Source: a virus
Virus record (IMG/VR): IMGVR_UViG_3300017613_001703
Reading direction: 5' to 3' (one strand)
Length of the DNA stretch: 61,754 nt
Shown in pieces: positions 1-34,381 of the stretch (positions are counted from its first letter, which is position 1; each line of letters opens with the position of its first letter). The notes beneath the pieces were generated by a model, which was not told the origin of the DNA, searched no databases, and saw only the letters and a program-made list of their open reading frames with translations. The position numbers and the translations under genes were made by a program.

Positions 1-121
1 CAATTTTAAACAAAGAATCAACCGGTTAAAAAAGTCGGGTGGAAACAAGGCCGATATTGACAGGCTTGCCAATAAAAGGATAGACTTCATTAAACAATTT
101 CTTAAAGAATAAAGGAGTTAA
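1..121. repeat. Direct terminal repeat, copy 1 (identical to 61634..61754)
   Basis: The first 121 nt match the last 121 nt base for base. Positions 1..112 re-read the last 37 codons plus stop of the giant ORF that ends at 61745. Confidence 0.95.
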
Positions 122-124
122 GCC

Positions 125-559
125 ATGGCTGGTGCATTGACAACCCCAACGAGAACGACCCAGGACATCGGGCAAATAATGAAGGCTGAGATCAAGATCA
201 GCCTTGCGTGTGTTTCCGACAGCGCAACTGGATTGGTGCCTGACCAGGCGTTGACCGGGCTTGATGGATATGTGCTTACCCAAGTTCAACCGGTCCCGGA
301 TGCAGTTGCGCCCTTTACGAGTGCGTTTGAAATCAAGATCATCGATGCGAACACGGCCAGGTTGTATCTCAGCGGTAGCGTTGCCGTAGACAGTTACGAG
401 ATTCTTGGAGGTCAGACCGGGTCAAACGATGGGAACTATCCTAGAATGGATGAAGCATCAACCTTTAAGATTGTGGATCCTGCCGACAGCGTATCCACAT
501 TAAGTGTCGGGAACTCAAAAGAAATCACGATTATCTTAAGGTTCGAAAGACAGGTCTAA
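125..559 (+). CDS. hypothetical protein (144 aa), immediately downstream of giant gene
   Basis: ATG 125 is preceded by AAAGGAG (114..120). No recognisable motif. Confidence 0.6.
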   Translation: MAGALTTPTRTTQDIGQIMKAEIKISLACVSDSATGLVPDQALTGLDGYVLTQVQPVPDAVAPFTSAFEIKIIDANTARLYLSGSVAVDSYEILGGQTGSNDGNYPRMDEASTFKIVDPADSVSTLSVGNSKEITIILRFERQV

Positions 560-581: not shown

Positions 582-986
582 ATGAAATCCTCCGAACATG
601 ATAGAGCGTTAAAAAAGTATAATGTCGGCAAGAAGTTTTTTGGTTCAGGCAACCTGATGTTTGACGGGAACTTTCTTTTAACCAACCATGAACCGTTTAT
701 AGCCTCGGTTGAATATGCCAGGAATGCATTGAGTTTTTACACATACGTTCCAGAAAGAGATGATTGCGATAATTACGCTTTCATGCAGTATGGCCGGCAG
801 CTTGAATACTTTTCCAGAAACGGTGGTGGTAATTTTTCTCGCACGTTCGGGCCATGTTGGGGATACTGGAACAATAAAAACCATATGTGGGGGTATGGCC
901 TAACCGACATGGGGTTTTTCCATGTGAACTATGGCCACATAGTCACGCCGGATTCATATAAAGGAATTGGGAGCATTACATCATGA
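582..986 (+). CDS. hypothetical protein (134 aa from ATG 582; the ORF opens at TTG 567)
   Basis: The open frame ends in an ATGA overlap with the next gene (983..986). A Cys/His pattern (DDCDNYAF, HMWGY, NYGH) is not assignable. No clear RBS. Confidence 0.5.
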   Translation: MKSSEHDRALKKYNVGKKFFGSGNLMFDGNFLLTNHEPFIASVEYARNALSFYTYVPERDDCDNYAFMQYGRQLEYFSRNGGGNFSRTFGPCWGYWNNKNHMWGYGLTDMGFFHVNYGHIVTPDSYKGIGSITS

Positions 987-2956
987 ATAAAATCATACCA
1001 ATTTTATTGGGCCTTCTTTTGATGACAGGCTGCGCCGGTACAGGATTCAAAACTAAGGCTCAGTCCGGTGTTGCAGATAAAACGACCGGTGATTCATTAA
1101 CGGGCACCGAGTTTACCGCTGTGAAAAACACTGCCGACACAGCGGACGCGCTTGCTACCGTTAACGAATCAGCCATTTCAGGTATAAAGGATGGTTCTGT
1201 TGCTTTAACCACGCCTGCGCTTGGAACACCTGCGTCCGGGACTTTAACCAACGCAACCGGATTGCCAGTCTCAACGGGTGTAAGCGGTCTTGGTGCAAAC
1301 GTTGCCACCGCTCTGGGTGTCGCCGTTGGTCAAACCGGGGCACCGGTTGTTTATGATGGTGCGCTCGGAACCCCAACCGCTGGCACCCTCACGAACGCAG
1401 ACGGCCTACCTATAGACGGTGGCACAACTGGAACATTGCCAATAGCCAGAGGCGGGACAGCGGCAGTAACAGCAGCAGCGGCAAGAGTGAGCCTTGGAGT
1501 TCCACCTGTATCGTCATGGGCAACAGCGACTTCATATGTAACCACCACTGACTCTCCAAACCGGATGGTTTATAATGATGGAATTCTTTACAAGTGTGTT
1601 GTCGCCCACACTTCTGGCGACACCGACGACGAGCCTGGAACCGGTGCGACTTGGCAAACATATTGGGAAGCTGGTGGCAGCGGCTTCGATGCCGAAAATC
1701 CTGGCGAGATTGGTGGAACGACTCCAGACGTGGTTAACGCTACTCAAGTTGTGATTTCAAGGAGTGCCACCCTGGGGGATACGTGGGAATTTCGTGAAGG
1801 CTCAGAGAACGGTGACAATTATACGTCTATCGCTGGTGCGGCTGCACAGGAGTTTGACGTAGATTATGTTCTGATAAACAAAGAAGACGCTGACCTGCTT
1901 GGACCACCTTGGCCTCATCCGGCAAGAACTGCCGAATATAATGCACTTGGTCAATATTCTTCCCATGACATTATTCCGTTTTCTGGTGCCGACACTGCTA
2001 TAAACCTTGCTCCGGTGTCGAGTCTTTCAGCTAATTCGTGGGTTTGGGCGCACTCGTTAGATGCGAATGATAAGTATGTTAATCCTAACGCAAGCGATTA
2101 TATTTGCTACAACGCTGCGGGAACCTTTACTTGTCTCGATGATGGTGATTCAGTTCTTATTACTGATGTAGGCACTGCGATATTTTATAGACGGAACGAT
2201 GGTGCCGGGTGGAACGTGTCTCACCCGAGTTTAACACTCGCTGATGCAGGGGCAGGCTGTAGCGGATGGAATTGTGGAATTGCCTCTGACGGCAATGTTC
2301 AGGCTTGGTATAAATTCGATGATGGAGCTTTGACAACCGATTCCAAGAATTCATGGACCCTTACGTCGAATGGGACTCCCGTTGCTGACACAGTGGACTA
2401 TATCCAAGGAGACGCTTCGGTGGACTTTGAGGGTGATGATAATGACTATTTTTCAATGGCCGGAACGACTGATGATTACGGGTGGGCAACCAGCAGCGAC
2501 CTTGCAATTACTGGATGGTTCAAAGTCGAATCGTCAAACGTGAACAGAAACATATTTTACAAACAGGATGTTATCAGAATTGCGTTTGGCGCGGGAAATA
2601 AATTTGTACTTTCTGTTGATGATGACGATGACGGCAGCTGGGACACATACCAGCATGGATCAACGCTACAGGACGGTAGATGGTATTTCTTTGCGGTCAC
2701 CATAAACGGAGGTGGTGCCGGGGCGTACACTATTCATTTGTGGGATTCAGTGGCGGAAGCAAGGGTTGGTACGGATATTTCGGATGTGTTTGACGATACA
2801 GATTCGCCTTACAATTTTGATGAAACGGACACTGTTTATATATCCAGTACAGGCACGAATGAATTTGACGGCAGGGTGGACGACATTGTTATATGGGATT
2901 CAACTCTATCGGAGACTATAATTGACCAGATTCGGCAGGGGACGTATGGACAGTAA
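983..2956 (+). CDS. tail-fibre-like protein with a lipoprotein-type signal, a CBM5/12-like segment and a LamG/concanavalin-like C-terminal domain (657 aa)
   Basis: N-terminus MNKIIPILLGLLLMTGC. Duplicated ALGTPxxGTLTNAxGLP and LPIARGGTAA fibre motifs. YKCVVAHTSGDTDDEPGTGATWQTYWE. C-terminal GWFK..RWYFFAVT..FDGRVDDIVIWD. Confidence 0.75.
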   Translation: MNKIIPILLGLLLMTGCAGTGFKTKAQSGVADKTTGDSLTGTEFTAVKNTADTADALATVNESAISGIKDGSVALTTPALGTPASGTLTNATGLPVSTGVSGLGANVATALGVAVGQTGAPVVYDGALGTPTAGTLTNADGLPIDGGTTGTLPIARGGTAAVTAAAARVSLGVPPVSSWATATSYVTTTDSPNRMVYNDGILYKCVVAHTSGDTDDEPGTGATWQTYWEAGGSGFDAENPGEIGGTTPDVVNATQVVISRSATLGDTWEFREGSENGDNYTSIAGAAAQEFDVDYVLINKEDADLLGPPWPHPARTAEYNALGQYSSHDIIPFSGADTAINLAPVSSLSANSWVWAHSLDANDKYVNPNASDYICYNAAGTFTCLDDGDSVLITDVGTAIFYRRNDGAGWNVSHPSLTLADAGAGCSGWNCGIASDGNVQAWYKFDDGALTTDSKNSWTLTSNGTPVADTVDYIQGDASVDFEGDDNDYFSMAGTTDDYGWATSSDLAITGWFKVESSNVNRNIFYKQDVIRIAFGAGNKFVLSVDDDDDGSWDTYQHGSTLQDGRWYFFAVTINGGGAGAYTIHLWDSVAEARVGTDISDVFDDTDSPYNFDETDTVYISSTGTNEFDGRVDDIVIWDSTLSETIIDQIRQGTYGQ

Positions 2957-4826
2957 AAAGCTTTTTACTTTTATATTCTTACTTATGTTCGCTACGCCTG
3001 CATCAGCGACCACGTTTTACATCGGATCTCACGCGGCAGCGGAACATCCGGGTGTGGGATATGCGACTTACGACGCCTTTAAATCTACCGCATCACCGTC
3101 AACCAGTGATGATCTGTATTTTGAAAACGGTGAGACTTTCACCTTTGGTGGTGCAAACCATAATATCGTCATAAATTGGCAAGGAACTTCTGGTGACAGG
3201 GCGATTATCGGCGGTTGGTCGTCTGATGCTGAGGCGAGCACCACAAAACCGATTCTTGATTTTGAATGGACGTGGCCGGGTGATGGTTTAGGCGGTGGAA
3301 TAAACGACTGCAAAACAAGCGGAGGATGGGATAAGGGTAAATGCTGGACCCCGGCGATTAAAGTTATGGATAGAGATTATGTAACAATCGAAAATTTAGA
3401 CATTCGAAATGTCGTGGGTGTGGGGCCGGTCCTCGATGATGGTGATTATCCAATCATGGATGGTGTAAAGGTTGATCGAACATGGGGGAAAAGCGGAAGT
3501 GTTAGCGACGTGCCCACGTCCGCTACAATACAAAACTGCGAGTTTTCCAGGTCTGCGCAACTTTTGAAAGAATTTATTTGCTCAAGAAAGGGCGGTTTCG
3601 CGATAACTCGGACAAACGGGGCGGTTTTTACAAAAAACTATATCCACGATCAGCATAACGAGGGCGTTGACATTATTAAGAATAGCCAAAACTTTGAAGC
3701 AAGTTTTAACCGGTTTGATAGTGTGCGCGGACCGGCCTTGGTGGTGTCCAGATCGAGAACAGGCGTGGTTAAATTCAATGTTTTTACGCACACAAAAGAT
3801 TCGATTGTTCCCCTCAAGGGTGCTTGTCTGACTATAGATCAGGAAGACGACACGAAGTATCCTGTAGCTTGGGTAGTCAAAGACATCCTGGTCTATGGAA
3901 ACATTTTTTACGGGATACGCGGGAACGCCATAGATATTGCTAACAATAATATATATGTGGATAACGGCCACTTTTCAAACATTGACGTAATAAATAACAC
4001 TGTAGTCGGTGCGAGAACTCCGTTAAGGCTTCATGACACCTTTGCTTGCGATTGGTCTGGCGGCGAAGTATCGGGGAACATTTTCTATACTGCAGGTACA
4101 ACTTTTATCGATGGAAAACCAGACAAGGTTATCGCGGCAGGCATGACCTTCTATGGTAATTTTTACGCGGCGCTGATGTATTCCGGTCAACTCCCGCCTG
4201 CTTCGGCGCGGCATGCATTGGATAGATATGGTGAACCCCCGTTTAATTCTACCTTGGGAGACGGAAGACAGTTTAATTATGAAGAAGCAATGGTTTCTCA
4301 CGCAGCACTTCCAGCCGGGTCAAGGGCAATAGGGTCAGGCATAAACAATAGCAGCCATAACTCTTCTTTGTTTAATCCCGCGTCAACCGACCCACAAACG
4401 GCAACATTATCAACGGTTGGTGCTACAGCGGATTGGGATTTCGGAGCGGTTGACTACGGGGGAACCTCTACGCCACCCAATGAGACAGATTGCAGCAACG
4501 GTATTGATGATGACGGTGATACGTTTACTGATTGCGACGATTCTGATTGTGTTGACGATCCAGCTTGTGAAGTAGCACTGGAAACCAATTGTTTCAACGG
4601 GTTCGATGACGACGGTAACGGAGATACAGATTGTGCAGACGCGAACTGCCAGGCAACCGAGGATGCTTGTGTGGAAAGTGAAGAATCGCCATACTGCACA
4701 GACGGGATTGACAATGATGGGGACGACTTAATTGATTGCTATTACGGAAGGTCTGACCCTGGATGTGCATGTGGTGAGCCTGAATATCACACACAACCAA
4801 AAATATTAGGTGGAATAAGCAAATAG
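2946..4826 (+). CDS. secreted right-handed beta-helix (pectate-lyase fold) protein with C-terminal Cys/Asp-rich repeats (626 aa)
   Basis: ATG 2946 gives MDSKKLFTFIFLLMFATPASA-TT (signal peptide with AxA site). PbH1-like repeats are present (NLDIRNV, IQNCEFS, VYGNIFYG, INNTVVG, VSGNIFY). There are three CxNGxDDDGDxxxDC repeats. Confidence 0.7.
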   Translation: MDSKKLFTFIFLLMFATPASATTFYIGSHAAAEHPGVGYATYDAFKSTASPSTSDDLYFENGETFTFGGANHNIVINWQGTSGDRAIIGGWSSDAEASTTKPILDFEWTWPGDGLGGGINDCKTSGGWDKGKCWTPAIKVMDRDYVTIENLDIRNVVGVGPVLDDGDYPIMDGVKVDRTWGKSGSVSDVPTSATIQNCEFSRSAQLLKEFICSRKGGFAITRTNGAVFTKNYIHDQHNEGVDIIKNSQNFEASFNRFDSVRGPALVVSRSRTGVVKFNVFTHTKDSIVPLKGACLTIDQEDDTKYPVAWVVKDILVYGNIFYGIRGNAIDIANNNIYVDNGHFSNIDVINNTVVGARTPLRLHDTFACDWSGGEVSGNIFYTAGTTFIDGKPDKVIAAGMTFYGNFYAALMYSGQLPPASARHALDRYGEPPFNSTLGDGRQFNYEEAMVSHAALPAGSRAIGSGINNSSHNSSLFNPASTDPQTATLSTVGATADWDFGAVDYGGTSTPPNETDCSNGIDDDGDTFTDCDDSDCVDDPACEVALETNCFNGFDDDGNGDTDCADANCQATEDACVESEESPYCTDGIDNDGDDLIDCYYGRSDPGCACGEPEYHTQPKILGGISK

Positions 4827-4836
4827 GAGAAACACA

Positions 4837-5124
4837 ATGGGAGAAATTAAAACCACGCCGCAGTATATTGTTACTGCAGAGCCGACGACAAACAAAATTG
4901 AAAAGGTTACTTTCACAATTAACTTCGGTTCTCCATCAACAGTAACAGTAAATTTTAATCTTGTTTCAATAGGCGGAACAGTCTTGAAACGTCATTCGTT
5001 CGACATTGATGGGGCTGAATTTACCGCGCTGTTTGATGGTATAGGATCTACTCTGAACAGCCGGATAGAATCAAATATTTGGTCATATGTTCAGGATAAT
5101 TATGATACCCAAGCAACACCTTAA
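4837..5124 (+). CDS. hypothetical protein (95 aa)
   Basis: AGGAGA RBS lies 6 nt upstream of ATG 4837. No signal peptide and no motif. Confidence 0.6.
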   Translation: MGEIKTTPQYIVTAEPTTNKIEKVTFTINFGSPSTVTVNFNLVSIGGTVLKRHSFDIDGAEFTALFDGIGSTLNSRIESNIWSYVQDNYDTQATP

Positions 5125-5431
5125 AAGGAACTAAAATGAAAAAAGTAGTAGGATTAATTGTATTCATGGCGGCAGCATTTTTGTTCGTCGGGTGTTTCGA
5201 GCGTGAAGAGACGGCTAGTCCGCCAATCGCACCGGCAAAACGGCTGACTGATGCGGAAGTAGCTGCGGGGACATCGACCGCATATGGGTTGATCACCCCT
5301 AAGATTTATGCAGACAACCTTGGCATTGGTGCTGGTGAGGCCACCACCTACGAGGTACTGAATACAAATTCTGACGTAGATACTGATTTAACGGATGGTG
5401 CTACGGCAAGCACTGTCCCGGCTGCTGCGGC
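5117..5431 (+). repeat. 315-bp duplicated module, copy A (RBS plus the first ~98 codons of a fibre gene); partner at 8311..8625
   Basis: Manual alignment gives about 21 mismatches over 315 bp (~93% identity). Homology starts at CACCTTAAAAGGAACTAAAATG. Confidence 0.9.
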
Positions 5432-7718
5432 TACTAAGACGTATGCTGATTTGAAAGAAACCATCGTTACAGAAGGCTCTTTGGGGGATTCTGTTATTGT
5501 ATCTGCTGATATTAAAGATGGAGTAATTCTTGTTGCGGATATGGCGGCAGCAGCGGTGGTTACTGAGTCTGATACTATCGCGGGGAATGATAACGATACG
5601 ACCGTACCGACCAGCGCGGCTGTGAAGGATTATGCTGATTTGAAATTGGATGGATATACCGTATGTTCAAATCTATCGGAGTTTACCACCGCAGAAACCG
5701 CCGGTGAAGGAATTTGGGTGGATGGGACCATCACTATGACGGGTAACATTGAAGTCAATGTGCCTGTGTACGTTTCCCCTGATGATGGTTTGATTGTTAC
5801 GACAGGGCATACATTAACTTTTGGTGATGGTGGATCGATTGATGCCGGTAGATATACTATATTCACAACAGCCTCGGATGGAACTGAAATCGTTGGATTA
5901 AAAGAGGCAAAAGTTGAATGGTTTGGTGCGAGCCCAGGCGCTTCGGCAGCAAACAACAGCACATATTTCGAAACTGCTGATAATGTTTGCGAACAAGGAG
6001 TTGTAACGGTTGGGGTCGGCACGTTCGCAATGAACGGGTGGGGCATTGAGTCTGTGTTTTGGCGCGGCGCTGGGGGCCATGGGACAATATTAGATATAGC
6101 AAGTGGTAGTATTCAAATTGACAACCAAGCCGCAGGATCGTCCTCAAACCCGGGAGAACTGGCATATTTTAGTATTACGGGTGCAACCACTTCTGCGTTG
6201 ATTTCTGTCCAAACCGAAAGCGCATTATTTAAAATTCATAATAATTTAATTTATAGCGGAGGCGGCGACGGAATCCAGCTTGCCACTGGCGGCGCTTCTG
6301 TACATTGCACGGGTATTGAAATATATGACAATAAAATTGCTTTAAATGCAGATGACGGTATTTATGGTACTGCAACATCAACAGCTCAAATTAATACTAT
6401 ATTTATCCATCACAATGATATCGGCAGTAATACAGGTGATGGTATACAGCTTTTTGGTGCGACCAGTATCGTGGTTGAAAACAACCAGATCCAAAACAAC
6501 GGGGTGTATGGAGTAAGTACCCTGGCGGTTGGTGACTCAAGCCAGAATTTTAGCAATTTGCAGATTGTAAAAAATCATTTCGAAGGGAACGATACAGGCA
6601 GTATTTATATGTGGGGTGAAAATGACGATTCACCCGTTAATGTTAGACATATCATAGATTTTGTAATAGATGGAAATTTCTTTTACACAAGCGACACAGT
6701 AGATGCATACATTACCTTTATTGCAACGGGCACAGGTGATGCCGCAGGATACAATGCGTTCAGAAATGGTTCTATCAAAAACAATAGATTTACTTCTAGC
6801 GGAACTGTTACTGACTATATAGATTTCGGAGACACATGTAATAGAGATGTTTTTGTGTTGTTACAATACTCAGATTTTGACGGGGCGGAGCTTAACGGAG
6901 ACCATCGCTATTACGAAGTCAATCTAGATGAATATACTAATTTTGGAACGGAGAGAACTCCGACATTTATTTCCAGTTATTTATGCGGCAATTCCGGGGC
7001 ACCATCTGAGACTCCATTATGGATTGGGCAGGAGTATTACGATTTCACAAACGACGTTTTGTATCGGGCTGTTGAAACGGATTCTGCTGCGGATTGGAAA
7101 ACCAGCGTAATTGTTGGTGAAGATATCGCTACAACAGGATCTATCAGTGGAACAGCCGTGCCTGTTTCGGTGGTAAATTGTACGGGAGCGCATGATACGG
7201 GTGACGATGCATTGATACTCGTGGATTCAGGAGAATCATTGACGGTAGATGCTTATATCGGCATGACATTATATAACATCGACGATGGCTCAAGTTGCAC
7301 AGTTGCTGATAATGACGGAACAAGCATAACGTGCGAAGATTATTCAGTGGGTGTGGCGAGTGGACTTACCGGCGGAACAGATGATAATTGGACTACAACC
7401 GATGTCTGGATGGTCGGCCCTGGACCGGAACAATCAAACCAAGTTTTCTATATTAATGCTGCTACTACAATCGCGCATCCCGCGACAGTCGGATTCGTTG
7501 CGAGTTACTTTTCATCTGGTGCAACTGTTGTAAAGATAGATCCAGCATCGGACTCTATGACAATCAACTTTTCTGACGATGGCGTCTACACAGACCCAAC
7601 TGCCGGTGTAACTGTTGATGGCGATGGAACTGCGGGAGACCACATCACTATCCATAATCAGTCGGTAACTGAAGCACACTCTTGGGGTGTTAATGGCTCA
7701 TGGGCAGCAGGGAGTTAA
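5136..7718 (+). CDS. tailspike/tail-fibre protein with beta-helix repeats, cassette 1 (860 aa)
   Basis: N-terminus MKKVVGLIVFMAAAFLFVGC (lipobox-like). Fibre motifs AEVAAGTSTAYGLITPKIY and TVPTSAAVKDYA. PbH1-type repeats GDGIQL, DDGIYG, GDGIQLFG, NNGVYGV. Confidence 0.8.
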   Translation: MKKVVGLIVFMAAAFLFVGCFEREETASPPIAPAKRLTDAEVAAGTSTAYGLITPKIYADNLGIGAGEATTYEVLNTNSDVDTDLTDGATASTVPAAAATKTYADLKETIVTEGSLGDSVIVSADIKDGVILVADMAAAAVVTESDTIAGNDNDTTVPTSAAVKDYADLKLDGYTVCSNLSEFTTAETAGEGIWVDGTITMTGNIEVNVPVYVSPDDGLIVTTGHTLTFGDGGSIDAGRYTIFTTASDGTEIVGLKEAKVEWFGASPGASAANNSTYFETADNVCEQGVVTVGVGTFAMNGWGIESVFWRGAGGHGTILDIASGSIQIDNQAAGSSSNPGELAYFSITGATTSALISVQTESALFKIHNNLIYSGGGDGIQLATGGASVHCTGIEIYDNKIALNADDGIYGTATSTAQINTIFIHHNDIGSNTGDGIQLFGATSIVVENNQIQNNGVYGVSTLAVGDSSQNFSNLQIVKNHFEGNDTGSIYMWGENDDSPVNVRHIIDFVIDGNFFYTSDTVDAYITFIATGTGDAAGYNAFRNGSIKNNRFTSSGTVTDYIDFGDTCNRDVFVLLQYSDFDGAELNGDHRYYEVNLDEYTNFGTERTPTFISSYLCGNSGAPSETPLWIGQEYYDFTNDVLYRAVETDSAADWKTSVIVGEDIATTGSISGTAVPVSVVNCTGAHDTGDDALILVDSGESLTVDAYIGMTLYNIDDGSSCTVADNDGTSITCEDYSVGVASGLTGGTDDNWTTTDVWMVGPGPEQSNQVFYINAATTIAHPATVGFVASYFSSGATVVKIDPASDSMTINFSDDGVYTDPTAGVTVDGDGTAGDHITIHNQSVTEAHSWGVNGSWAAGS

Positions 7719-7720
7719 CT

Positions 7721-8209
7721 ATGCGTAAATTTTATTTTGGCGCGGTATTTATCCTTAGTTTGATACTGTTGGGAACACTGGCTCATGCGTTTGGTTTGAT
7801 TGGACTGGGTTCTTGGAGAGAGATTACTTATCTCGGCACCAATATGGACTTTACAAATTGGTCGGATGACGACCCGGTCGGGTGGACAGTTTACGGTGAA
7901 AGTGGGTCTGACCCGATGGTAACAGAGGTAAGCGGCGCGGCGAGAATGTATACGTCGAGTGCTTATGTTGATATCACACAAGCTATGATAATGGACGGAC
8001 TTAGTTGTCACATTACACTTGATTATACTCATGTATCTGGAAGTTTTGTTATTGGTAGTACTGATGGTGGATCAGATATTAAGGTGATAGACTCTTCTGA
8101 CGATGACGGCCCATTTGATTTTACGGGGGCTGGCGATGTCTTATGTATCAAACGAAATACTCTCCCGGCCGATGGGACTTTTGATAATATACTAGTGTGG
8201 TGCGATTAG
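7721..8209 (+). CDS. small secreted protein, cassette 1 accessory (162 aa), possibly jelly-roll/CBM-like
   Basis: ATG 7721 gives MRKFYFGAVFILSLILLGTLAHA-F (signal peptide). The C-terminal GTFDNILVW resembles the ends of carbohydrate-binding modules. Same position and architecture as 9316..9792. Confidence 0.6.
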   Translation: MRKFYFGAVFILSLILLGTLAHAFGLIGLGSWREITYLGTNMDFTNWSDDDPVGWTVYGESGSDPMVTEVSGAARMYTSSAYVDITQAMIMDGLSCHITLDYTHVSGSFVIGSTDGGSDIKVIDSSDDDGPFDFTGAGDVLCIKRNTLPADGTFDNILVWCD

Positions 8210-8264
8210 TAGCGAATCTGGAGACAGTGGGGAAATAGCGGCAAAAAACTAACGAGGAAATACC

Positions 8265-8318
8265 ATGCCAGACCGAATGGACCCATTGGACAGGATGTTG
8301 ACCGAAGAGACACCTTAA
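8265..8318 (+). pseudogene. 17-codon 5' remnant of the 11631..11963 gene (recombination footprint)
   Basis: Encodes MPDRMDPLDRMLTEETP then a stop, the same peptide as the first 17 codons at 11631. There are 6/51 nt differences and all are synonymous. It ends at the ACACCT junction with duplicated module B. Confidence 0.75.
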
Positions 8319-8625
8319 AAGGAACTAAAATGAAAAAAGTAGTAGGATTAATTGTATTCATGGCGGCAGCATTTTTATTCGTCGGGTGTTTCGAGCGTGA
8401 AGAGACGGCTAGTCCGCCAACCGCACCAGCAAAACGGTTGACCAATGCGGAAGTAGCTGCGGGGACATCGACCGAGTACGGGTTGATCACCTCTAAGATT
8501 TATAAAGACAACCTTGGCATTGGTGCTGGTGAGGCCACCACCTACGAGGTGCTGAATACAAACTCTGACGTGGACACTGACCTAACGGATGGTGCTACGG
8601 CAAGTACCGTTCCGGCTGCTGCGGC
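8311..8625 (+). repeat. 315-bp duplicated module, copy B; partner at 5117..5431
   Basis: See copy A. Confidence 0.9.
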
Positions 8626-9319
8626 AGTAACGGGTTTGATTGACACCACTCAAAAGTTAGAGGATGCAAGTAGTGCCGGTGCTTACGCAAGCGATATTTT
8701 GGACTGTACTGATCAAGCCGCTCTTGTTACGCTTGTTTCTGGTGTGAGTCCCACAAATGTCACACCAGTCGACACCGGTAACGAGAACACGACTTTTTAT
8801 CTTTTGATGACTGATGGTAGAACAGATACGCAAGCCGTCGAAACTGATCTAGAATTTCCATACAACCCTTCCACCGACACCTTAACAGTGAAGAACATTG
8901 CTATAGCGTCTGGCGGTGGGATAACTAATGTGGGTGTTATATCTCCTGATGGCGTCCTTCCCAGGGTGCTTGACGGCGCAGAACTTGGTGACACCGCAAC
9001 ACCACACGTTATGACAGCGGCAGAAGTAAGCGGAAATATCATCACAAATAATGGTGCAAGTGCAGATGCAGTGTTTACATTTCCGGCTCTGTCGACGATA
9101 GAGGGCTCGACCGGGATTTTTAATGTTGAGGAAGCTTATCAAGTCGATCTTGAACCAAACGGTTCAGAGCAGTTTTATTTAAACGGAGCGCAGATGGGAA
9201 CAGGAGAGCATATCCAAAATACGGCAGATACAATAGGGGATATGATTAGTTGGATATGCACGGAAACCGCGTGCTTTTTTAAATCAGGTAACCCAAATTG
9301 GGTAGAGGCTACACCATGA
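8330..9319 (+). CDS. tail-fibre protein, cassette 2 (329 aa); the N-terminal ~98 aa are shared with 5136..7718 and the C-terminus is unrelated
   Basis: Near-identical MKKVVGLIVFMAAAFLFVGCFEREETASPP...TVPAAAA. It then diverges. Confidence 0.8.
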   Translation: MKKVVGLIVFMAAAFLFVGCFEREETASPPTAPAKRLTNAEVAAGTSTEYGLITSKIYKDNLGIGAGEATTYEVLNTNSDVDTDLTDGATASTVPAAAAVTGLIDTTQKLEDASSAGAYASDILDCTDQAALVTLVSGVSPTNVTPVDTGNENTTFYLLMTDGRTDTQAVETDLEFPYNPSTDTLTVKNIAIASGGGITNVGVISPDGVLPRVLDGAELGDTATPHVMTAAEVSGNIITNNGASADAVFTFPALSTIEGSTGIFNVEEAYQVDLEPNGSEQFYLNGAQMGTGEHIQNTADTIGDMISWICTETACFFKSGNPNWVEATP

Positions 9320-9792
9320 AAAAGTTACTATGCTGTTTAATTATTTTATTGTGCATGGGTGTTTCTGCTTGGGGATTAAATCTCTCAACTATCAATGAGA
9401 TGGGCAGTAAGGGCTACGGCCCAGAAATATTGGCAGATGGTACTTGTGATTCTGATAGCTGGTCAACCACTGAGGTTGGGTGGGCTTATAACGCAACGGA
9501 TGATGACTATGACGTTGATGGCTCTCAAGAGGGTAATGCATATATATATAAAGATACCACTGGCACTGATGACAATACTCCATATTTAGTTGTATTTGAA
9601 ATAAAAGCTATTTCGGCGGGAAGCTGTTACGTATATTTTGGTGGTGTTATTGATACTGGAACCGCAAGATCAACTGCTGACACCTTCGAAGAAGAAATAT
9701 TAACAACAACAGGCGACAATACTTTTGGTTTAAAGTGTACATCTACATTTGTAGGAACCGTAGATAATTTTTCTATAAAACGGGTTAATTAA
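9316..9792 (+). CDS. small secreted protein, cassette 2 accessory (158 aa)
   Basis: ATG 9316 gives MKKLLCCLIILLCMGVSA-WG (signal peptide). The C-terminal GTVDNFSIKRV is CBM-like. Its stop overlaps the next start (ATGA-type junction at 9792). Confidence 0.6.
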   Translation: MKKLLCCLIILLCMGVSAWGLNLSTINEMGSKGYGPEILADGTCDSDSWSTTEVGWAYNATDDDYDVDGSQEGNAYIYKDTTGTDDNTPYLVVFEIKAISAGSCYVYFGGVIDTGTARSTADTFEEEILTTTGDNTFGLKCTSTFVGTVDNFSIKRVN

Positions 9793-11621
9793 TGAGACAA
9801 TTTGTCTTTTTTTTAATAGGGTTTTTACTTTGTTGCTCTTCTGCTTTTGCAGTAGATACTACTTACTACGTTACTAAGGCGGGTAACGACGACACCGGAG
9901 ATGGTACGGTGGAAACTCCATGGTTAACTATTCAACACGCTATAAACCAAGTTGAAGCGAACGAAGCCGAAGACACCAGTTTTCTTGTAACGGTTGGTGC
10001 TGGCACATATACAGAGCAAATCACACTTTCTGATTTTGACGCCAGCGGATCATCTCTCTCTGTGGATGGCGGTGCTGTTGCGACCATTGACGGTGGGGAT
10101 AGATTGTCAGGATGGGTAACTGCCCCTGAAATTGGGGCAGGAGTTTATAAGTATGTTGACGGTGGAACAGCCTTGGGCTATGCGCCTGAGAATATGGCAA
10201 CAGACAATAAAGCGACATTAGATATCACCACCTCCGCTATGGATGCTGGATCTGGGGACGCCATACTTGCCCTTGCAGAAGGCAATGCTGGTTGGGATGG
10301 GGTGGAAGTGAGATGGGGGTATAACTCTGTAAACGACAATATTTATGTTCGCTTCGAAGATGGCAGCGACCCAGATGATAAGGATTGTGCGTTTTCCCCT
10401 GATTCTGGCGGTGCTTTTTTTCTTGATGATTCAAGTAATGTAACAATTACGGGTTTCACAATCCGAAACAACTATTCGGCAATTAGGATGACATATAATT
10501 GTGACAACAATATCATAGAAGACAACACTCTGGAAGGTGGATTGATAACAGTTAATATCAAGGGTTATTCGACCTCCATTCCAGATGGTAATATAATTAG
10601 AAACAATGACATAACCCTTGGTTTTATTTACACCTCTGCTGGATACCAAATGTACAAATCCGCAACTGATGAAAATATTTGGGACACTGTTAAGACTGGC
10701 AATTCTTCAAGTGACCGAATTGGGATTTATATTTATCGTGGTGGAGATGGGAACAAAATATACAGTAATATTATTGCTAAACATTTTGACGGTATTGTTA
10801 TTTCTGATGATACAGCAGACCGAAACGATAATACCGAAATTTATGAGAACACACTGCATCATAATATGGATAGTTCCATCGAATTAAATACGTATGATGG
10901 CGAGGGGATAAAGATATATGACAATTCTCTCCATGAATCCACTACTTTAATACGAATTAAAAGATTAGACACGGGGCCGGTTTATATCTATAATAATGAT
11001 ATTACAGTCGAAACTGCGGTTGGTTATGATTCTCAGACTCTGGCGAGTGGGATCACTTTCTCTCTTACTAGTACACCGGAAACTACCGGTACACTTTACG
11101 TTTACCACAATTCAATAGCCACGGCAGCCGCCGCAATTAATTATGATGTAAACGCATCAAGTACGGCAAAATTTCCAAACTTCTGGTTTATTAATAATAT
11201 TTTTGGTAGTACTAATATTCTCCGACGTATAGAAACAATGGGGGAACCTTTATCTCACACCTGTTATAATTATGCTGCGGGAGCGGAGCAATATGGAGAT
11301 GATTATTGGCCCTTAAGGCATGATAATACTGGTGATCTTCAGAATATTGACGGGACACTAACTGATTTATGGACCTCTTTAGTTAATGTAAACGTAGAAA
11401 TCCCGATTGATCCAACCGATCTTCTTGAAGCTGGCGTCGATGTTTCTGATACATTTTCATGTGATGGTGACAGTAAAAGCGCGTTGCCAGGATTTACTAG
11501 TAACTACTTTGATCGGTCTGCACCAGATATAGGTTCGGTTCAATGGTCGGATGCAAATTCAATACAAGATGGCAACGGCACCATACTATACGGAACCGGA
11601 ACAATAAGTACGTTAGACTAA
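9792..11621 (+). CDS. secreted beta-helix polysaccharide lyase/depolymerase-like protein (609 aa)
   Basis: MRQFVFFLIGFLLCCSSAFA-VD signal. TYYVTKAGNDDTGDGTVETPWLTIQHAINQV is the typical N-terminal cap of pectate-lyase-fold proteins. Repeated N-rich beta-helix rungs are present. Confidence 0.7.
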   Translation: MRQFVFFLIGFLLCCSSAFAVDTTYYVTKAGNDDTGDGTVETPWLTIQHAINQVEANEAEDTSFLVTVGAGTYTEQITLSDFDASGSSLSVDGGAVATIDGGDRLSGWVTAPEIGAGVYKYVDGGTALGYAPENMATDNKATLDITTSAMDAGSGDAILALAEGNAGWDGVEVRWGYNSVNDNIYVRFEDGSDPDDKDCAFSPDSGGAFFLDDSSNVTITGFTIRNNYSAIRMTYNCDNNIIEDNTLEGGLITVNIKGYSTSIPDGNIIRNNDITLGFIYTSAGYQMYKSATDENIWDTVKTGNSSSDRIGIYIYRGGDGNKIYSNIIAKHFDGIVISDDTADRNDNTEIYENTLHHNMDSSIELNTYDGEGIKIYDNSLHESTTLIRIKRLDTGPVYIYNNDITVETAVGYDSQTLASGITFSLTSTPETTGTLYVYHNSIATAAAAINYDVNASSTAKFPNFWFINNIFGSTNILRRIETMGEPLSHTCYNYAAGAEQYGDDYWPLRHDNTGDLQNIDGTLTDLWTSLVNVNVEIPIDPTDLLEAGVDVSDTFSCDGDSKSALPGFTSNYFDRSAPDIGSVQWSDANSIQDGNGTILYGTGTISTLD

Positions 11622-11630
11622 GGAGACGGC

Positions 11631-11963
11631 ATGCCGGACAGAATGGACCCGTTAGATAGAATGTTGACCGAAGAGACACCTGCCGTTCGAGCAATCCACG
11701 AAGAGGTTAAAGATGTTCTAAGGCTAGTTCTTGACAGCAATATTAAAGTTGAGACAGCCATGGCAGATGGTTTTCGTGAGCTTGCCGATAAATTGACGCA
11801 GACTCACAATAGCTGCGAAGCCAGGCGGTCTATCCAAAATGGACAAATTTCAAAACTGGTCACTAAACAGGAAGTCAATCGAACGAAACTAAGCTACCTG
11901 GTTGGCGGGTCTGCTGTTGGTGGTGGGGTTTTTGCGAAAATTGTTGATTGGCTGATGAGGTAG
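11631..11963 (+). CDS. tail-anchored membrane protein (110 aa), first gene of the lysis cluster
   Basis: AAGGAGA RBS. A soluble helical N-terminus is followed by a single C-terminal TM (LSYLVGGSAVGGGVFAKIVDWLM). It lies directly upstream of the endolysin. Confidence 0.65.
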   Translation: MPDRMDPLDRMLTEETPAVRAIHEEVKDVLRLVLDSNIKVETAMADGFRELADKLTQTHNSCEARRSIQNGQISKLVTKQEVNRTKLSYLVGGSAVGGGVFAKIVDWLMR

Positions 11964-11969
11964 GGAAAT

Positions 11970-12401
11970 ATGTATCTTACAGAACAACTTATTCGGCATG
12001 AAGGTTTGCGGTTACACCCATACAAATGTCCTGCGGGATATTGGAGTATAGGAGTGGGCCGGAATCTTGAAGGAAAAGGTATTACTCATCAAGAAGCAAT
12101 GTATATGATGATGCATGACATAGCTGACGCCAAGATTGGCGTTAAACAGATTTTAAGCAATTATCATATTGAAGATTATAAAATAAATTTGCCAAGAAGG
12201 GATGCATTGATCAATGTAGCGTACAACATCGGCCAGTCGTCCTTGATGGGGTTCAGAAAAATGTTTTCTGCCATATATGCAGAAGATTGGGATAAGGCCG
12301 CTGTTCAGCTACTTGATAGTAAATACGCAACAGAGGTTGGGGGAAGGGCTGTTGAATTGTCTAACCAGTTGAGAACAGGAGCATATCAAAGAAATGAATG
12401 A
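11970..12401 (+). CDS. endolysin, T4-lysozyme-like (GH24) muramidase (143 aa)
   Basis: LIRHEGLRLHPYKCPAGYWSIGVGRNL matches the T4L catalytic region [20 protein letters not shown]. The position equivalent to T4L Asp20 is Cys here. Confidence 0.9.
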   Translation: MYLTEQLIRHEGLRLHPYKCPAGYWSIGVGRNLEGKGITHQEAMYMMMHDIADAKIGVKQILSNYHIEDYKINLPRRDALINVAYNIGQSSLMGFRKMFSAIYAEDWDKAAVQLLDSKYATEVGGRAVELSNQLRTGAYQRNE

Positions 12402-12684
12402 TTTAACAATTCGAAAGGCGTTGGCGAATCTAATCGCCAACAGCGATATGGTTGATCTGACAAATATGTATCGGGTTTTGTTCAGAATGTTTTTGTCAGT
12501 CACTATGATTATGGGCGGCGGTAGTTTTTTGTGGGCTGCTGCTTTTACAGAAAAAGCGAGGCTTACCGATATCACCACAATGGTCGTTGGTTTTGTGATT
12601 GGTACTTTTCTCGCTCTGCCAATCGGCTTTTACTTTGGTGGACAAGACAGGCAGAAGAAAAATGATGAACAAAATGAAATATAG
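12394..12684 (+). CDS. two-TM membrane protein, holin candidate (96 aa)
   Basis: Its ATG overlaps the endolysin stop. Hydrophobic segments are MFLSVTMIMGGGSFLWAAAF and TMVVGFVIGTFLALPIGFYFGG, followed by a charged C-terminus. Confidence 0.6.
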   Translation: MNDLTIRKALANLIANSDMVDLTNMYRVLFRMFLSVTMIMGGGSFLWAAAFTEKARLTDITTMVVGFVIGTFLALPIGFYFGGQDRQKKNDEQNEI

Positions 12685-13066
12685 CGCAGGATATAAATAT
12701 ATTTTGCGGGAACCGTTTACTCTCCCGCTGGCAGGGCATTGGCCGAAATGCGGTAATAATTTTGTGCGGATAACATCGGATGGTCAATTGCTTCTCCGGG
12801 AAGGCTATGCCTGGGATGGTGTTAGTGGTCCTGTTGCTGATACGAAAATTAATATGCGGGGTGGTCTTGTTCACGATGCGCTTTATCAGCTTTTACGCAA
12901 CGATATCCTCCCAAGAGAATATCAAATAGTTGCGGATATTGTCGCCAAAAATATATGGATTGAGGACGGCATGTGGGCCTGGCAAGCGGGCATGTACTAT
13001 AGAGTTCTTAGGACCGTATCACCGTTTACAGCTAAAAAACCGAGAGAAGTATTACATGCACCATGA
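12662..13066 (+). CDS. DUF1353-like protein (134 aa)
   Basis: GYAWDGVSGP...GGLVHDALYQLLR matches the DUF1353 pattern (xDGxSxP ... HDxxY), recalled from memory. Confidence 0.55.
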   Translation: MMNKMKYSAGYKYILREPFTLPLAGHWPKCGNNFVRITSDGQLLLREGYAWDGVSGPVADTKINMRGGLVHDALYQLLRNDILPREYQIVADIVAKNIWIEDGMWAWQAGMYYRVLRTVSPFTAKKPREVLHAP

Positions 13067-13082: not shown

Positions 13083-13412
13083 ATGAAAAAAGCTTCAGTT
13101 AGTTTACTAATGGTGTTTTTGGCGGCAATGGTTGGTTGTGCCAATATGGGCAGTTTAGACACGCCTGAAAAACAATTTCTTGGTGCGAGGGGTGAGCTTA
13201 ACATCCTGATCGAACAGTATGTAATGATTCAGGATGATGTACCAATGCCCCTACATTTAAAAATAAAAAGTTATTTTGAAAATGCCGATCTTATATTGGA
13301 CATGTGGCAAACAAATATAAACAAAGATATCGATTTTGCCACAGACTATCGCGCCTGGATAAACATCAAAAGTCAAATACTGCAGACCTTAAAGGAGATT
13401 TACGATGAGTGA
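13083..13412 (+). CDS. small lipoprotein (109 aa), o-spanin-like by position
   Basis: MKKASVSLLMVFLAAMVGC has a lipobox. It lies at the end of the lysis cluster. No partner i-spanin was identified. Confidence 0.5.
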   Translation: MKKASVSLLMVFLAAMVGCANMGSLDTPEKQFLGARGELNILIEQYVMIQDDVPMPLHLKIKSYFENADLILDMWQTNINKDIDFATDYRAWINIKSQILQTLKEIYDE

Positions 13413-18843: not shown

Positions 18844-19110
18844 TTACTCCCCGTACCCGTACCCGTACCCGTACCCGTCCCCGTCCCCGTCCCCGTACCC
18901 GTACCCGTACTCGTACCCGTCCCCGTACCCGTTCCCGTACCCGGTCCCGTACCCGTTCCCGTTCCCGTCCCCGTACCCGGTCCCGTTCCCGTCCCCGTAC
19001 CCGGTCCCGTTCCAGTTCCCGTACCCGTTCCCGTACCCGTGCCCGTCCCCGTCCCCGTACCCGTACTCGTACCCGTAAGTATTATGACTTTCGCCGTCAA
19101 TTATTCCCAT
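18844..19110 (-). CDS. Gly-(Tyr/Asp/Asn) dipeptide-repeat protein, copy 1 (88 aa)
   Basis: TGAGGAAATC then [17 protein letters not shown] followed by (G-X)n with X mostly Y/D/N/H (NAC codons). The start, RBS and GE-stop are conserved with copy 2. Confidence 0.55.
18850..19077. repeat. hexanucleotide array 1: (CCCGTN)38 on the + strand, equal to (NACGGG)38 on the - strand
   Basis: Read directly. 228 bp of period-6 repeat with few interruptions (tactcg, ccggtc, ccagtt). Confidence 0.95.
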
Positions 19111-19151: not shown

Positions 19152-19454
<303 letters not shown>

Positions 19455-34187: not shown

Positions 34188-34381
34188 TGCAAACCCGACC
34201 GGTCAGAATTGATATGCAGATGAGCGAGAGCCGTGGTCTGACGGAGCAGCAGGCCAGGTGCATCCTCAACGATTTAAAGAAGGTCTTGATTTGTCACGGG
34301 ATATGGCATACGATATGGGAAACGAACGAGCCCGACCTGAAACGGGTTGATTTTAAGGGCTGTATTGTGGTGGGAAAATGA
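34187..34381 (+). CDS. hypothetical protein (64 aa)
   Basis: ATGA-type coupling on both sides. Confidence 0.55.
   Translation: MQTRPVRIDMQMSESRGLTEQQARCILNDLKKVLICHGIWHTIWETNEPDLKRVDFKGCIVVGK

What the first reader, a model, noticed from the sequence alone, without database searches (positions are those of the whole stretch)
983..11621. Seven of eight consecutive fibre/depolymerase genes begin with Sec or lipoprotein signal peptides
- **Genes with signals:** The genes at 983, 2946, 5136, 7721, 8330, 9316 and 9792 all open with a basic n-region, a 12-18 residue hydrophobic core, and either an AxA-type site (ASA-T, AHA-F, VSA-W, AFA-V) or a lipobox-like xxGC (LMTGC, FVGC twice).
- **Virion hallmarks in the same proteins:** GGTAA and AGTSxxxxITP fibre motifs, PbH1 beta-helix rungs, and LamG and CBM-like domains.
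- **Why it is odd:** Tail assembly is cytoplasmic, so cleavable export signals on fibres or spikes are unexpected.
- **Possible explanations:** The proteins may be exported soluble or surface-anchored depolymerases that strip or remodel the host envelope, for superinfection exclusion or progeny release. They may have dual fates. Or the hydrophobic N-termini may be used for something other than export.
Basis: partly seen in the sequence, partly recalled or inferred. Interest (0 to 1): 0.65.

Follow-up and report, generated by a model that had tools for sequence, protein, structure and literature searches.

The report
Phage fibre and depolymerase genes carrying export signals
Seven of eight neighbouring fibre-, lectin- and sugar-cutting-enzyme genes in this tailed phage begin with real-looking secretion or lipoprotein signals, and related phages share the trait, so these proteins are probably sent to the host envelope, not built into the virus tail.

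Summary
Seven of the eight genes in 983-11621 start with a basic n-region, a 13-20 residue uncharged hydrophobic stretch, and either an AxA-type site or a lipobox. In about 150 related phage and prophage loci the rate is 5-7% of ORFs, and runs of three occur only in lysis cassettes.

The trait is conserved. Three related phage contigs carry the same layout: giant protein, two small conserved proteins, a hypervariable module, then a holin-like gene. In them 14 of 14 module genes have such N-termini, although the signal sequences themselves differ. Five unrelated phage contigs carry similar runs, one of them away from the tail genes.

All full-length homologues of the 9792 beta-helix also carry signals. 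Its helix starts directly after the signal, with no particle-binding domain.

Best reading, at about 0.45: these are late, Sec- or lipoprotein-exported glycan-binding and glycan-cutting proteins. They act on the producer cell's envelope or matrix, for progeny release, to stop progeny being trapped on debris, or for exclusion. The virion uses the signal-less fibre at 42740.

Not excluded: exported proteins that join virions at lysis.

I found no precedent in the searchable literature. No trained signal predictor and no proteomics were available.

The parts
125..559 (+). Conserved small protein (144 aa), no signal. First of two genes that always precede the module.
   Evidence: 24% identical to L003 4073-4474. 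The same position is held in L004 and L076. No family hit.
582..986 (+). Conserved small protein (134 aa), no signal, with an invariant D-C ... K-N-H-x-W motif. Its stop overlaps the start of gene 983.
   Evidence: 33% identical to L003 4462-4887. Homologues sit directly upstream of the module in L004 and L076. A thiol-enzyme reading of the motif is my inference only.
983..2956 (+). 657-aa lipoprotein-type precursor: lipobox LMTG|C17, phage fibre repeats at about residues 35-190, a middle domain, and a C-terminal LamG lectin domain (501-645).
   Evidence: The full-length homologue P0023 (43% identity) also has ...LTTGC|AG.
2946..4826 (+). 626-aa Sec-type precursor (ASA|T). Right-handed beta-helix at 141-288, then three acidic double-disulfide repeats near the C-terminus. 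18 Cys in the mature part.
4837..5124 (+). 95-aa protein without a signal, the one exception. Function unknown.
5136..7718 (+). 860-aa lipoprotein-type precursor (LFVG|C20). Pro-rich tether, AGTSxxxxITP and NDNDTTxPTSAAVKDY fibre motifs, beta-helix at 356-503.
7721..8209 (+). 162-aa Sec-type precursor (AHA|F). No family hit.
8255..8315 (+). Relic copy of the ribosome-binding site and first 17 codons of the holin-like gene 11631. It marks a cassette-insertion joint.
   Evidence: 84% identical to 11621-11681.
8330..9319 (+). 329-aa lipoprotein-type precursor. Its first roughly 100 residues are about 95% identical to those of 5136; the shared DNA is 5107-5406 = 8301-8600 at 93%. The C-terminal beta-sandwich (about 210-329) resembles phage spike and adaptor (T4 gp10-like) domains.
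   Evidence: Model confidence is adequate only for the C-terminal domain.
9316..9792 (+). 158-aa Sec-type precursor (VSA|WGLNL). The counterpart in L076 also begins ...VSA|WALNL.
9792..11621 (+). 609-aa Sec-type precursor (AFA|V). The beta-helix carbohydrate-active-enzyme fold starts at residue 23, directly after the signal.
11631..12401 (+). Downstream flank: a holin-like 110-aa protein with a C-terminal membrane helix (11631-11963) and a phage lysozyme (11970-12401).
   Evidence: A holin-like gene follows the module in L003, L004 and L076 as well.

Best explanation
The eight genes form a hypervariable late-gene module. It lies between the injected giant protein genes and the lysis cassette of a 61.6-kb podovirus.

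**Export (inferred from sequence).** Seven products are made as precursors with working export signals.
- Four are cut by signal peptidase I and released into the periplasm or extracytoplasmic space.
- Three are lipid-modified at the lipobox cysteine and tethered to a membrane by a Pro-rich linker.

**What the mature proteins are.** They have the build of phage receptor-binding proteins but are not built into the particle. They have fibre stalks, a LamG lectin, three beta-helix glycan-cutting enzymes and an adaptor-like beta-sandwich.

**What they do (inferred, less certain).** They act on the infected cell's own surface or nascent glycans and on the surrounding matrix late in infection. Cutting or masking the glycan would free progeny from capsule, EPS and debris and would block further adsorption. 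After lysis the soluble enzymes would diffuse as free depolymerases.

**The virion's own fibre.** The particle uses the signal-less conserved fibre at 42740-43783.

**How the module changes.** It diversifies by cassette exchange at conserved joints.
For: **Shown:**
- Signal architecture on 7 of 8 genes, far above background.
- The same module position in L003 (5 of 5 genes), L004 (5 of 5) and L076 (4 of 4). The signal sequences differ and gene content differs even between L003 and L004, whose flanks are near-identical. So the signal property itself is under selection.
- Three window proteins and their counterparts match lipobox patterns and continue with Pro-rich tethers.
- Early mature regions are not positively charged (mean -0.5).
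- Homologues P0007-P0013 of 9792 all carry a signal, lipobox or N-terminal anchor. One lies on a 536-kb contig of a candidate division WWE3 (candidate phyla radiation) bacterium, so it is cellular. The signal-less phage proteins P0015 and P0016 share only the cap motif, and it lies behind N-terminal extensions.
- In the AF2 model the beta-helix starts at residue 23. The best solved-structure matches are cellular glycosidases and lyases, and tailspikes rank lower.
- 2946 has three double-disulfide repeats.
- A signal-less fibre next to the nozzle gene resembles, at its N-terminus, the fibre at the same position in relative MW202426. That relative and vB_Pun_Y3 have no signal-bearing fibre genes.
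- In the P22-like contig L160 a similar run of four signal-bearing genes lies between lysis genes and the small terminase, not at the tailspike position.
- The phage also encodes a signal-bearing metzincin resembling the biofilm-associated protease Mep72.

**From papers:** non-virion late depolymerases exist (phiNIT1 PghP and LevP, PMC6966330). Bacteria export tailspike-like EPS enzymes (WceF, PMC7949094). Phages export late proteins through Sec (Lys44, PMC6116005).
Against: - No trained predictor, proteomics or expression data were available, so export is inferred from sequence alone.
- The proteins carry virion-type parts. These are fibre repeats shared with thousands of fibre proteins and a C-terminal domain of 8330 that resembles phage spike and gp10-like adaptor domains. 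One L076 protein also has endosialidase-N and Phage_tail_beta Pfam hits.
- The module sits where many podoviruses keep tail fibres.
- In the siphovirus-like L157 no large signal-less receptor-binding protein is obvious near the tape-measure gene.
- In a two-membrane host, Sec alone delivers proteins only to the periplasm. How they would reach surface glycans is unexplained.
- Cysteine parity supports disulfide bonding only in the pooled set (17 even, 6 odd), not in the window itself (3 even, 4 odd).
- The host is unknown.
Confidence: 0.45

Rival explanations
1. Exported virion parts. The whole accessory receptor-binding set is routed through Sec and the lipoprotein pathway. It folds, oxidises or is lipidated outside the cytoplasm, and it docks onto finished particles only when holin lesions and lysis mix the compartments.
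For: - Virion-type architecture: fibre repeats, a gp10-like or spike-like domain in 8330, and endosialidase-N and Phage_tail_beta hits in L076.
- Position next to structural genes, and hypervariability typical of receptor-binding proteins.
- L157 shows no obvious signal-less large receptor-binding protein.
- Disulfide-rich domains would benefit from an oxidising compartment.
- From established knowledge: in-vitro attachment of tailspikes to tail-less particles is classical for P22.
Against: - No docking element is shared among the module proteins or with the 42740 fibre.
- 9792 has no N-terminal domain between the signal and the beta-helix.
- Lipid-anchored proteins would hold particles on membrane debris.
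- In L160 the run is unlinked to the tail genes.
- I know of no tailed phage that assembles this way.
Confidence: 0.2
2. Host-benefit or conversion cargo (morons). These would be exported adhesins, lectins or enzymes that change the host's surface or matrix for the cell's benefit or for defence against other phages. They would have no role in this phage's own exit.
For: - Lower GC than the head-tail genes (0.45 against 0.52).
- Cassette-type turnover.
- Similar runs in temperate-looking contigs: L159 carries an integrase, with the run after gpJ where lambda carries lom and stf. L160 carries its run beside the lysis genes.
- From established knowledge: lambda Bor and Lom and T5 Llp are precedents for exported phage cargo.
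Against: - The genes are packed without detectable promoters or terminators of their own inside the late + strand block.
- No integrase was seen in the window, although I did not search every ORF.
- At 10.6 kb, or 17% of the genome, the module is very large for cargo.
- Its position is fixed in four related phages.
Confidence: 0.15
3. Not export signals. The hydrophobic N-termini would be cytoplasmic assembly or docking helices, or uncleaved anchors that hold fibres at the inner membrane until assembly. The proteins would be ordinary virion fibres.
For: - Tail assembly is cytoplasmic in every studied tailed phage.
- The N-termini are predicted helical.
- The 1005-aa L076 protein lacks a clear cleavage site.
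Against: - A docking helix should be conserved in sequence. Only the generic n/h/c layout is conserved.
- Lipoboxes with an invariant Cys and -3/-1 small residues have no reason to exist in a docking helix.
- Positively charged n-regions predict that the bulk of the protein faces outwards.
- Cellular homologues use the same position for true signals.
Confidence: 0.08
4. Chance or gene-calling artefact.
For: My predictor is a hand-made rule set, and it gave false positives from internal start codons in the background loci.
Against: - p is about 1e-7 at the background rate.
- All seven are first-ATG starts with SD-like sites.
- The pattern is reproduced in eight other contigs.
Confidence: 0.01

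Closest known systems
Virion tailspikes and branched depolymerase sets (P22 and HK620 tailspikes, K1F endosialidase, CBA120 TSP1-4, Klebsiella phage K64-1)
   Same: - Beta-helix enzymes, fibre stalks and a gp10-like adaptor-type domain.
- Several different enzymes side by side.
- Hypervariable cassettes with a conserved N-terminal part (5136 and 8330).
   Different: - Known tailspikes have no signal peptide or lipobox and start with a particle-binding or adaptor domain.
- Here the N-terminus is an export signal, and in 9792 the helix follows it directly.
Non-virion phage depolymerases (Bacillus phage phiNIT1 PghP and LevP; free tailspike forms), as described in PMC6966330
   Same: Late-made polymer-degrading enzymes that are not part of the particle and clear capsule or EPS around the burst.
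   Different: - Per that review, those are burst-released from infected cells or arise from alternative start codons.
- It describes no arrays of signal- and lipobox-bearing fibre-like proteins.
Exported phage lipoproteins encoded near receptor-binding genes (T5 Llp, Cor of phi80/T1/N15, lambda Bor and Lom). From my own knowledge.
   Same: - Phage-encoded lipoproteins or outer-membrane proteins that change what the cell surface offers to phages.
- They protect progeny from receptor on debris.
   Different: - Those are small single-domain proteins (about 60-200 aa) that mask a protein receptor.
- These are 158-860 aa multidomain fibre, enzyme and lectin proteins in runs of four to seven.
- No sequence relation was found.
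Bacterial exported tailspike-like EPS enzymes (Pantoea WceF, PMC7949094)
   Same: A tailspike-like beta-helix without a capsid-binding domain, exported by a signal peptide to act on the cell's own exopolysaccharide.
   Different: - WceF has a Tat signal and is encoded in a bacterial EPS cluster.
- These proteins have Sec or lipoprotein signals and sit in a phage late operon.
Sec-exported and signal-anchor-release (SAR) endolysins (fOg44 Lys44 and SAR lysozymes, PMC6116005)
   Same: Late phage lysis-associated proteins that use the host Sec system before lysis. The module abuts the lysis cassette.
   Different: Those are peptidoglycan hydrolases. These are glycan-binding and glycan-cutting fibre-like proteins.

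Membership tests
Sec-type (signal peptidase I) signal peptide | Short positively charged n-region | tested here: met
   MDSKK, MRK, MKK and MR in 2946, 7721, 9316 and 9792.
Sec-type (signal peptidase I) signal peptide | Uncharged hydrophobic core shorter than a membrane-spanning helix | tested here: met
   The h+c region is 15-20 residues and the whole signal 18-23 residues.
Sec-type (signal peptidase I) signal peptide | Small residues at -3 and -1 | tested here: met
   ASA|T, AHA|F, VSA|W and AFA|V.
Sec-type (signal peptidase I) signal peptide | Positive call by a trained predictor (SignalP 6, DeepTMHMM) | not tested
Only my own rule set was used.
Sec-type (signal peptidase I) signal peptide | Actual export and cleavage | not testable with these tools
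   Needs reporter fusions or N-terminal proteomics.
Bacterial lipoprotein signal (Lgt/LspA) | Lipobox ending in Cys directly after the hydrophobic core | tested here: met
   983 (LMTG|C17) and 5136 and 8330 (LFVG|C20) match the G+LPPv2 and PS51257 patterns, which I wrote from memory. The counterparts in L003, L004 and L076 match too.
Bacterial lipoprotein signal (Lgt/LspA) | Flexible tether after the Cys | tested here: met
   CFEREETASPPIAPAK in the window, and CAGVTDTPPTAPSP and CAGYSERGAAGPLVAPSP in homologues.
Bacterial lipoprotein signal (Lgt/LspA) | Lipid modification and globomycin-sensitive cleavage | not testable with these tools
   Needs an experiment.
Virion tailspike or tail-fibre receptor-binding protein | Beta-helix or fibre-repeat body | tested here: met
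   Pfam Beta_helix in three proteins. The fibre repeats match 5461 proteins. AF2 model plus Foldseek.
Virion tailspike or tail-fibre receptor-binding protein | N-terminal particle-binding or adaptor domain | tested here: not met
   - In 9792 the helix cap begins at residue 23, right after the signal.
- No similarity of any module protein to the 42740 fibre or to other tail proteins.
- For 983, 5136 and 8330 the low-confidence fibre regions leave this open.
Virion tailspike or tail-fibre receptor-binding protein | Physical presence in purified particles | not testable with these tools
   No isolate and no proteome. No sequencing run was found.
Receptor-masking phage lipoproteins (T5 Llp, Cor) | Small single-domain lipoprotein with homology to Llp or Cor | tested here: not met
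   The proteins are 329-860 aa and multidomain. There are no Pfam or PHROG hits of that kind.
Bacterial exported tailspike-like EPS enzymes (WceF type) | Twin-arginine (Tat) signal | tested here: not met
   No RR motif in any of the seven n-regions. Tat-like motifs occur only in two unrelated small ORFs at 34378 and 34713.
Bacterial exported tailspike-like EPS enzymes (WceF type) | Beta-helix without a capsid-binding domain, exported | tested here: met
   9792. Export itself is inferred.

The most novel reading that the evidence does not exclude
A set of tailed phages routes an entire tailspike-type apparatus through the host Sec and lipoprotein pathways. The apparatus comprises fibres, an adaptor domain, lectins and several depolymerases. 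One possibility is that the parts mature outside the cytoplasm and are loaded onto particles only at lysis. The other is that they assemble into a virion-like, lipid-tethered tailspike complex on the cell envelope. Either would be a mode of phage protein deployment not described for Caudoviricetes. About 20% of the closest homologues of the 983 protein (matched mostly through its fibre repeat) also carry signals, so it may be widespread.
Probability: 0.2. Interest if true: 0.9.

Novelty: new variant of a known kind. Interest (0 to 1): 0.66.

Why it matters
**Annotation.** Pipelines label such genes 'tail fibre' or 'tailspike' and use them for host-range inference and depolymerase mining. If a recurrent class of them is exported and not built into the virion, those labels are wrong for that class.

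**Biology.** It would add an envelope- and matrix-directed exit or exclusion step to the lytic programme, alongside holin, endolysin and spanin. That would be a bacterial-virus counterpart of receptor-destroying enzymes.

**Use.** Proteins that fold after Sec export, some with disulfide repeats, may be stable free depolymerases.

**The rival reading.** If instead they join virions after export, that would overturn the rule that tails are assembled entirely in the cytoplasm.

Tried and rejected
- **Masking paralogues.** I asked whether the module proteins are exported copies of the virion fibre (42740) or of any tail protein. All-against-all BLASTP found only 5136/8330 and the unrelated pair 38386/38867. 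Rejected.
- **Cysteine parity as a test for disulfide-bonded exported proteins.** Pooled over five contigs it is 17 even and 6 odd. The window alone is 3 even and 4 odd, and the L003 and L004 proteins are not independent. Inconclusive.
- **Own promoters or terminators in the module.** Counts equal the shuffled expectation. Uninformative.
- **Sequence searches against solved structures** for 9792, 2946 and 5136 found nothing useful.
- **tblastn against cultured phages** for 9792 and 983 found nothing or only short repeat matches.
- **Relatives through the C-terminus of the giant protein** in IMG/VR: none. The metagenome scan with the 134-aa protein returned only the L004 contig again.
- **The closest genome hit of the portal** (47%, a contig binned with 'Ca. 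Desulfobacula maris') does not reach the fibre region. It gives only a weak host hint.
- **AF2 of 8330** is poor (mean pLDDT 49) except for the C-terminal domain, so its fold matches are tentative.
- **Sequencing-run look-ups** found nothing.
- **Four literature searches** found no report of signal peptides on tailed-phage fibres. The library is limited to open-access papers.
- **Large signal-like ORFs in the background loci.** I inspected five of the loci that had them. In the genes next to the nozzle the calls came from internal start codons and are false positives.

Full report
**What the window is.** The 61,754-base window has an exact 121-bp repeat at its two ends, so it is a complete circular assembly of about 61.6 kb.

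It encodes, in order:
- large terminase (29199-30554);
- portal (30554-32767);
- an N4-gp56-type major capsid protein (36214-37254);
- adaptor and nozzle proteins (39916-42743);
- a 347-aa fibre (42740-43783);
- internal proteins and a 4770-aa giant ORF (47433-61745).

Across the circular junction the giant gene is followed by two small genes (125-559, 582-986), then the eight genes of the finding (983-11621). After them come a holin-like gene, a lysozyme and further lysis-region genes. Shine-Dalgarno-like sites precede most genes. There are no tRNA genes.

**Checking the observation.**
- Seven of the eight genes start at an ATG with an SD-like site.
- Each of the seven encodes a short basic n-region, a 13-20 residue uncharged hydrophobic stretch, and then either small residues at -3/-1 or a lipobox cysteine. 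The -3/-1 sites are ASA|T, AHA|F, VSA|W and AFA|V. The lipoboxes are LMTG|C in 983 and LFVG|C in 5136 and 8330.
- The first ten mature residues are neutral or acidic on average.
- The 95-aa gene 4837-5124 has no signal.
- My rule-based scan of 7 module ORFs of at least 100 aa signal-like, against 4 of 43 elsewhere in the window (Fisher p = 3e-6).
- In 70 related phage and prophage loci found through the portal, 7.5% of ORFs are signal-like. Runs of three occur only in lysis cassettes (SAR endolysin plus spanins).
- In 80 viral loci found through the nozzle protein the rate is 5.3%, with no run longer than two. I inspected five of the loci with large signal-like ORFs. The calls next to the nozzle gene were internal-start false positives.
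SignalP and LipoP were not available.

**What the proteins are.**
- **983:** fibre repeats (residues about 35-190) that match 5461 proteins, plus a C-terminal LamG domain.
- **2946:** a beta-helix and three acidic double-disulfide repeats.
- **5136:** fibre motifs shared with other phage fibre-like proteins, plus a beta-helix.
- **9792:** a beta-helix.
  - The AF2 model (pLDDT 77, pTM 0.82) has an N-terminal helix at residues 2-17 and strands starting at residue 23.
  - Its best solved-structure matches are cellular glycosidases and lyases: GH120 XylC, BT_1002, GH110, GH136 and Pel9A. Capsule lyases and tailspikes rank lower.
  - Many phage beta-helix proteins match in BFVD.
- **8330:** shares its first roughly 100 residues with 5136.
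  - Only its C-terminal domain (about 210-329) is modelled with usable confidence.
  - That domain resembles a phage capsid spike, the N-terminal adaptor region of CBA120 TSP4 and baseplate proteins. I treat these matches as tentative.
- **7721 and 9316:** no family hits.

**The signals are conserved as a property, not as a sequence.** Homologue searches led to three related phage contigs. They are L003 (59.4 kb), L004 (59.9 kb, also returned as L075) and L076 (54.8 kb).

All three have the same layout: giant polyvalent protein, homologues of 125-559 and 582-986, a run of genes, then a holin-like gene.
- In those runs 5 of 5, 5 of 5 and 4 of 4 genes start with a signal, a lipobox or (once) an anchor-like hydrophobic N-terminus.
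- L003 and L004 have nearly identical flanking genes but largely different module genes. The module turns over quickly while every newcomer keeps a signal.
- Every homologue of 8330 (P0018-P0021) has a signal or lipobox.
- So does each of P0007-P0013, the full-length homologues of 9792. P0011 among them lies on a 536-kb contig of a candidate division WWE3 (candidate phyla radiation) bacterium. The shorter P0014 begins directly at the mature domain, so it may be truncated.
- The signal-less phage proteins P0015 and P0016 share only the helix-cap motif, and it lies behind N-terminal extensions.
- Relatives with 35-39% capsid identity (MW202426 and Pseudoalteromonas phage vB_Pun_Y3) have ordinary signal-less fibre genes.

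**The pattern recurs in unrelated phages.** Runs of three or four signal-bearing fibre, beta-helix or LamG genes occur in:
- L001, a phage with a Terminase_3-type terminase;
- L006;
- L157, a 66% GC siphovirus-like genome of 42.4 kb, found on 21 contigs across public assemblies;
- L159, lambda-like, where the run lies after gpJ and directly before the endolysin;
- L160, P22-like, where the run lies between lysis genes and the small terminase, away from the tailspike position.

Of the 150 best representatives matching 983, mostly through its fibre repeat, my scan flags 35 as signal-like. About 30 of these are convincing. Those I looked up sit on contigs of 2.6-68 kb, several of them phage-sized.

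**How the module grows.** The segment 5107-5406 recurs at 8301-8600 (93% identity). It covers the ribosome-binding site plus the first 90 codons of the lipobox fibre.

The gap before gene 8330 holds an 84% copy of the ribosome-binding site and first 17 codons of the holin-like gene 11631. Either 8316-11620 or 5107-8300 was therefore added as a cassette, by recombination at conserved joints.

The module's GC content (0.45) is lower than that of the head-tail genes (0.52).

**Interpretation.** Two features have no evident role other than export and processing. One is a canonical lipobox followed by a Pro-rich tether. The other is the -3/-1 rule maintained across divergent signals.

A docking helix would be conserved in sequence, and it is not. 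I therefore take export as very likely, at about 0.85.

Whether the exported proteins end up on particles is the open point.

Against virion membership:
- a conserved signal-less fibre sits next to the nozzle gene;
- no shared docking element was found;
- 9792 has no particle-binding domain;
- in L160 the run is unlinked to tail genes;
- lipid anchors would tie particles to debris.

For virion membership:
- the parts are of virion type (fibre repeats, a gp10-like domain, endosialidase-type domains in L076);
- L157 lacks an obvious alternative receptor-binding protein.

The module's neighbourhood with lysis genes, which holds in at least six of the nine contigs, fits an exit-related role. The signal-bearing Mep72-like metzincin at 14863-16197 points the same way. 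That role could be cutting or masking the producer cell's glycans and matrix, so that progeny escape and are not lost on debris. Exclusion of other phages and free depolymerase after the burst would be side effects.

These functional steps are inference.

**Comparison with what is known.** The principle has precedents:
- non-virion depolymerases (phiNIT1 PghP and LevP, PMC6966330);
- exported bacterial tailspike-like enzymes (WceF, PMC7949094);
- Sec-exported endolysins (PMC6116005);
- small receptor-masking lipoproteins such as T5 Llp (my own knowledge).

None of these is an array of large fibre-like proteins with Sec and lipoprotein signals. Four literature searches found no such report.

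I therefore class the finding as a new variant of a known kind. There is roughly a 0.2 chance of something more unusual: export followed by virion loading, or an envelope-anchored tailspike complex.

**Limits.**
- The host is unknown. The only hint is a 47% portal match on a contig binned with 'Ca. Desulfobacula maris'.
- There is no expression or proteome data, and no sequencing runs were found.
- Signal calls come from my own heuristic.
- One of the two structure models is weak.

Noticed in passing
window 8255-8315 and 5107-5406 / 8301-8600: An 84% copy of the ribosome-binding site and first 17 codons of the holin-like gene 11631 lies in the gap before gene 8330. It sits next to a 93% duplicate of the start of gene 5136. 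Together they look like a scar of cassette insertion by recombination at conserved joints.
   Followed up: partly
window 14863-16197 (- strand): A 444-aa protein with a Sec-type signal (…LAVPGWA|DELN) and a reprolysin/metzincin domain. Its best NCBIfam match is the biofilm-associated protease Mep72. It is a further exported phage protein outside the module.
   Followed up: partly
window 34378-34731 and 34713-35024: Two small overlapping ORFs (117 and 103 aa) between the portal and scaffold genes begin with textbook twin-arginine motifs (NRRTFLK and NRRMFLK) and hydrophobic cores. Neither has a family hit.
   Followed up: no
window 18850-19077 and 19198-19430: Long hexamer tandem arrays, (CCCGTA) x38 and (CCCGTC/CCCATT) x about 40, lie between the - strand early genes and the next + strand block. 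They translate as Gly-Thr or Pro-Val/Ile repeats in open frames.
   Followed up: no
window 1-121 and 61634-61754: An exact 121-bp terminal repeat. The window is a complete circular assembly, so the giant gene is directly upstream of gene 125.
   Followed up: yes
window 47433-61745; L003 1-4071; L076 1-2470: A giant 4770-aa ORF with almost no cysteine (1 Cys). Its counterparts in relatives carry ART-PolyVal and LPD38 domains, or Eco57I and helicase domains. These look like polyvalent injected proteins.
   Followed up: partly
window 582-986; L003 4462-4887; L076 2875-3294: The small protein always found just upstream of the module keeps an invariant D-C ... K-N-H-x-W motif. It could be a Cys/His enzyme of papain or transglutaminase type. 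It has no family hit, and any link to the module proteins is unknown.
   Followed up: no
window 38386-38853 and 38867-39331: Tandem paralogues (56% identical, 155 aa each) between the capsid and adaptor genes.
   Followed up: no
window 12662-13066 and 13083-13412: Inside the lysis region, a 134-aa protein matches PHROG 1158, labelled 'tail assembly chaperone'. It is followed by a 109-aa lipobox protein that does not look like a spanin. No clear spanin pair was seen.
   Followed up: no
ends of genes 4837, 8330 and homologues (L003 4884, L004 14325, P0018, P0021): Several module proteins end in ...(E/A)TP just before the next gene's start (ACACC-ATG-A overlap). The holin-like gene has EETP at the recombination joint. 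This may be a shared coupling and recombination sequence.
   Followed up: partly
proteins P0022-P0171 (homologues of 983): About one in five of the 150 closest representatives matching 983, mostly through its fibre repeat, begin with a convincing signal peptide. They come from both low-GC and high-GC sources, so the phenomenon seems widespread.
   Followed up: partly
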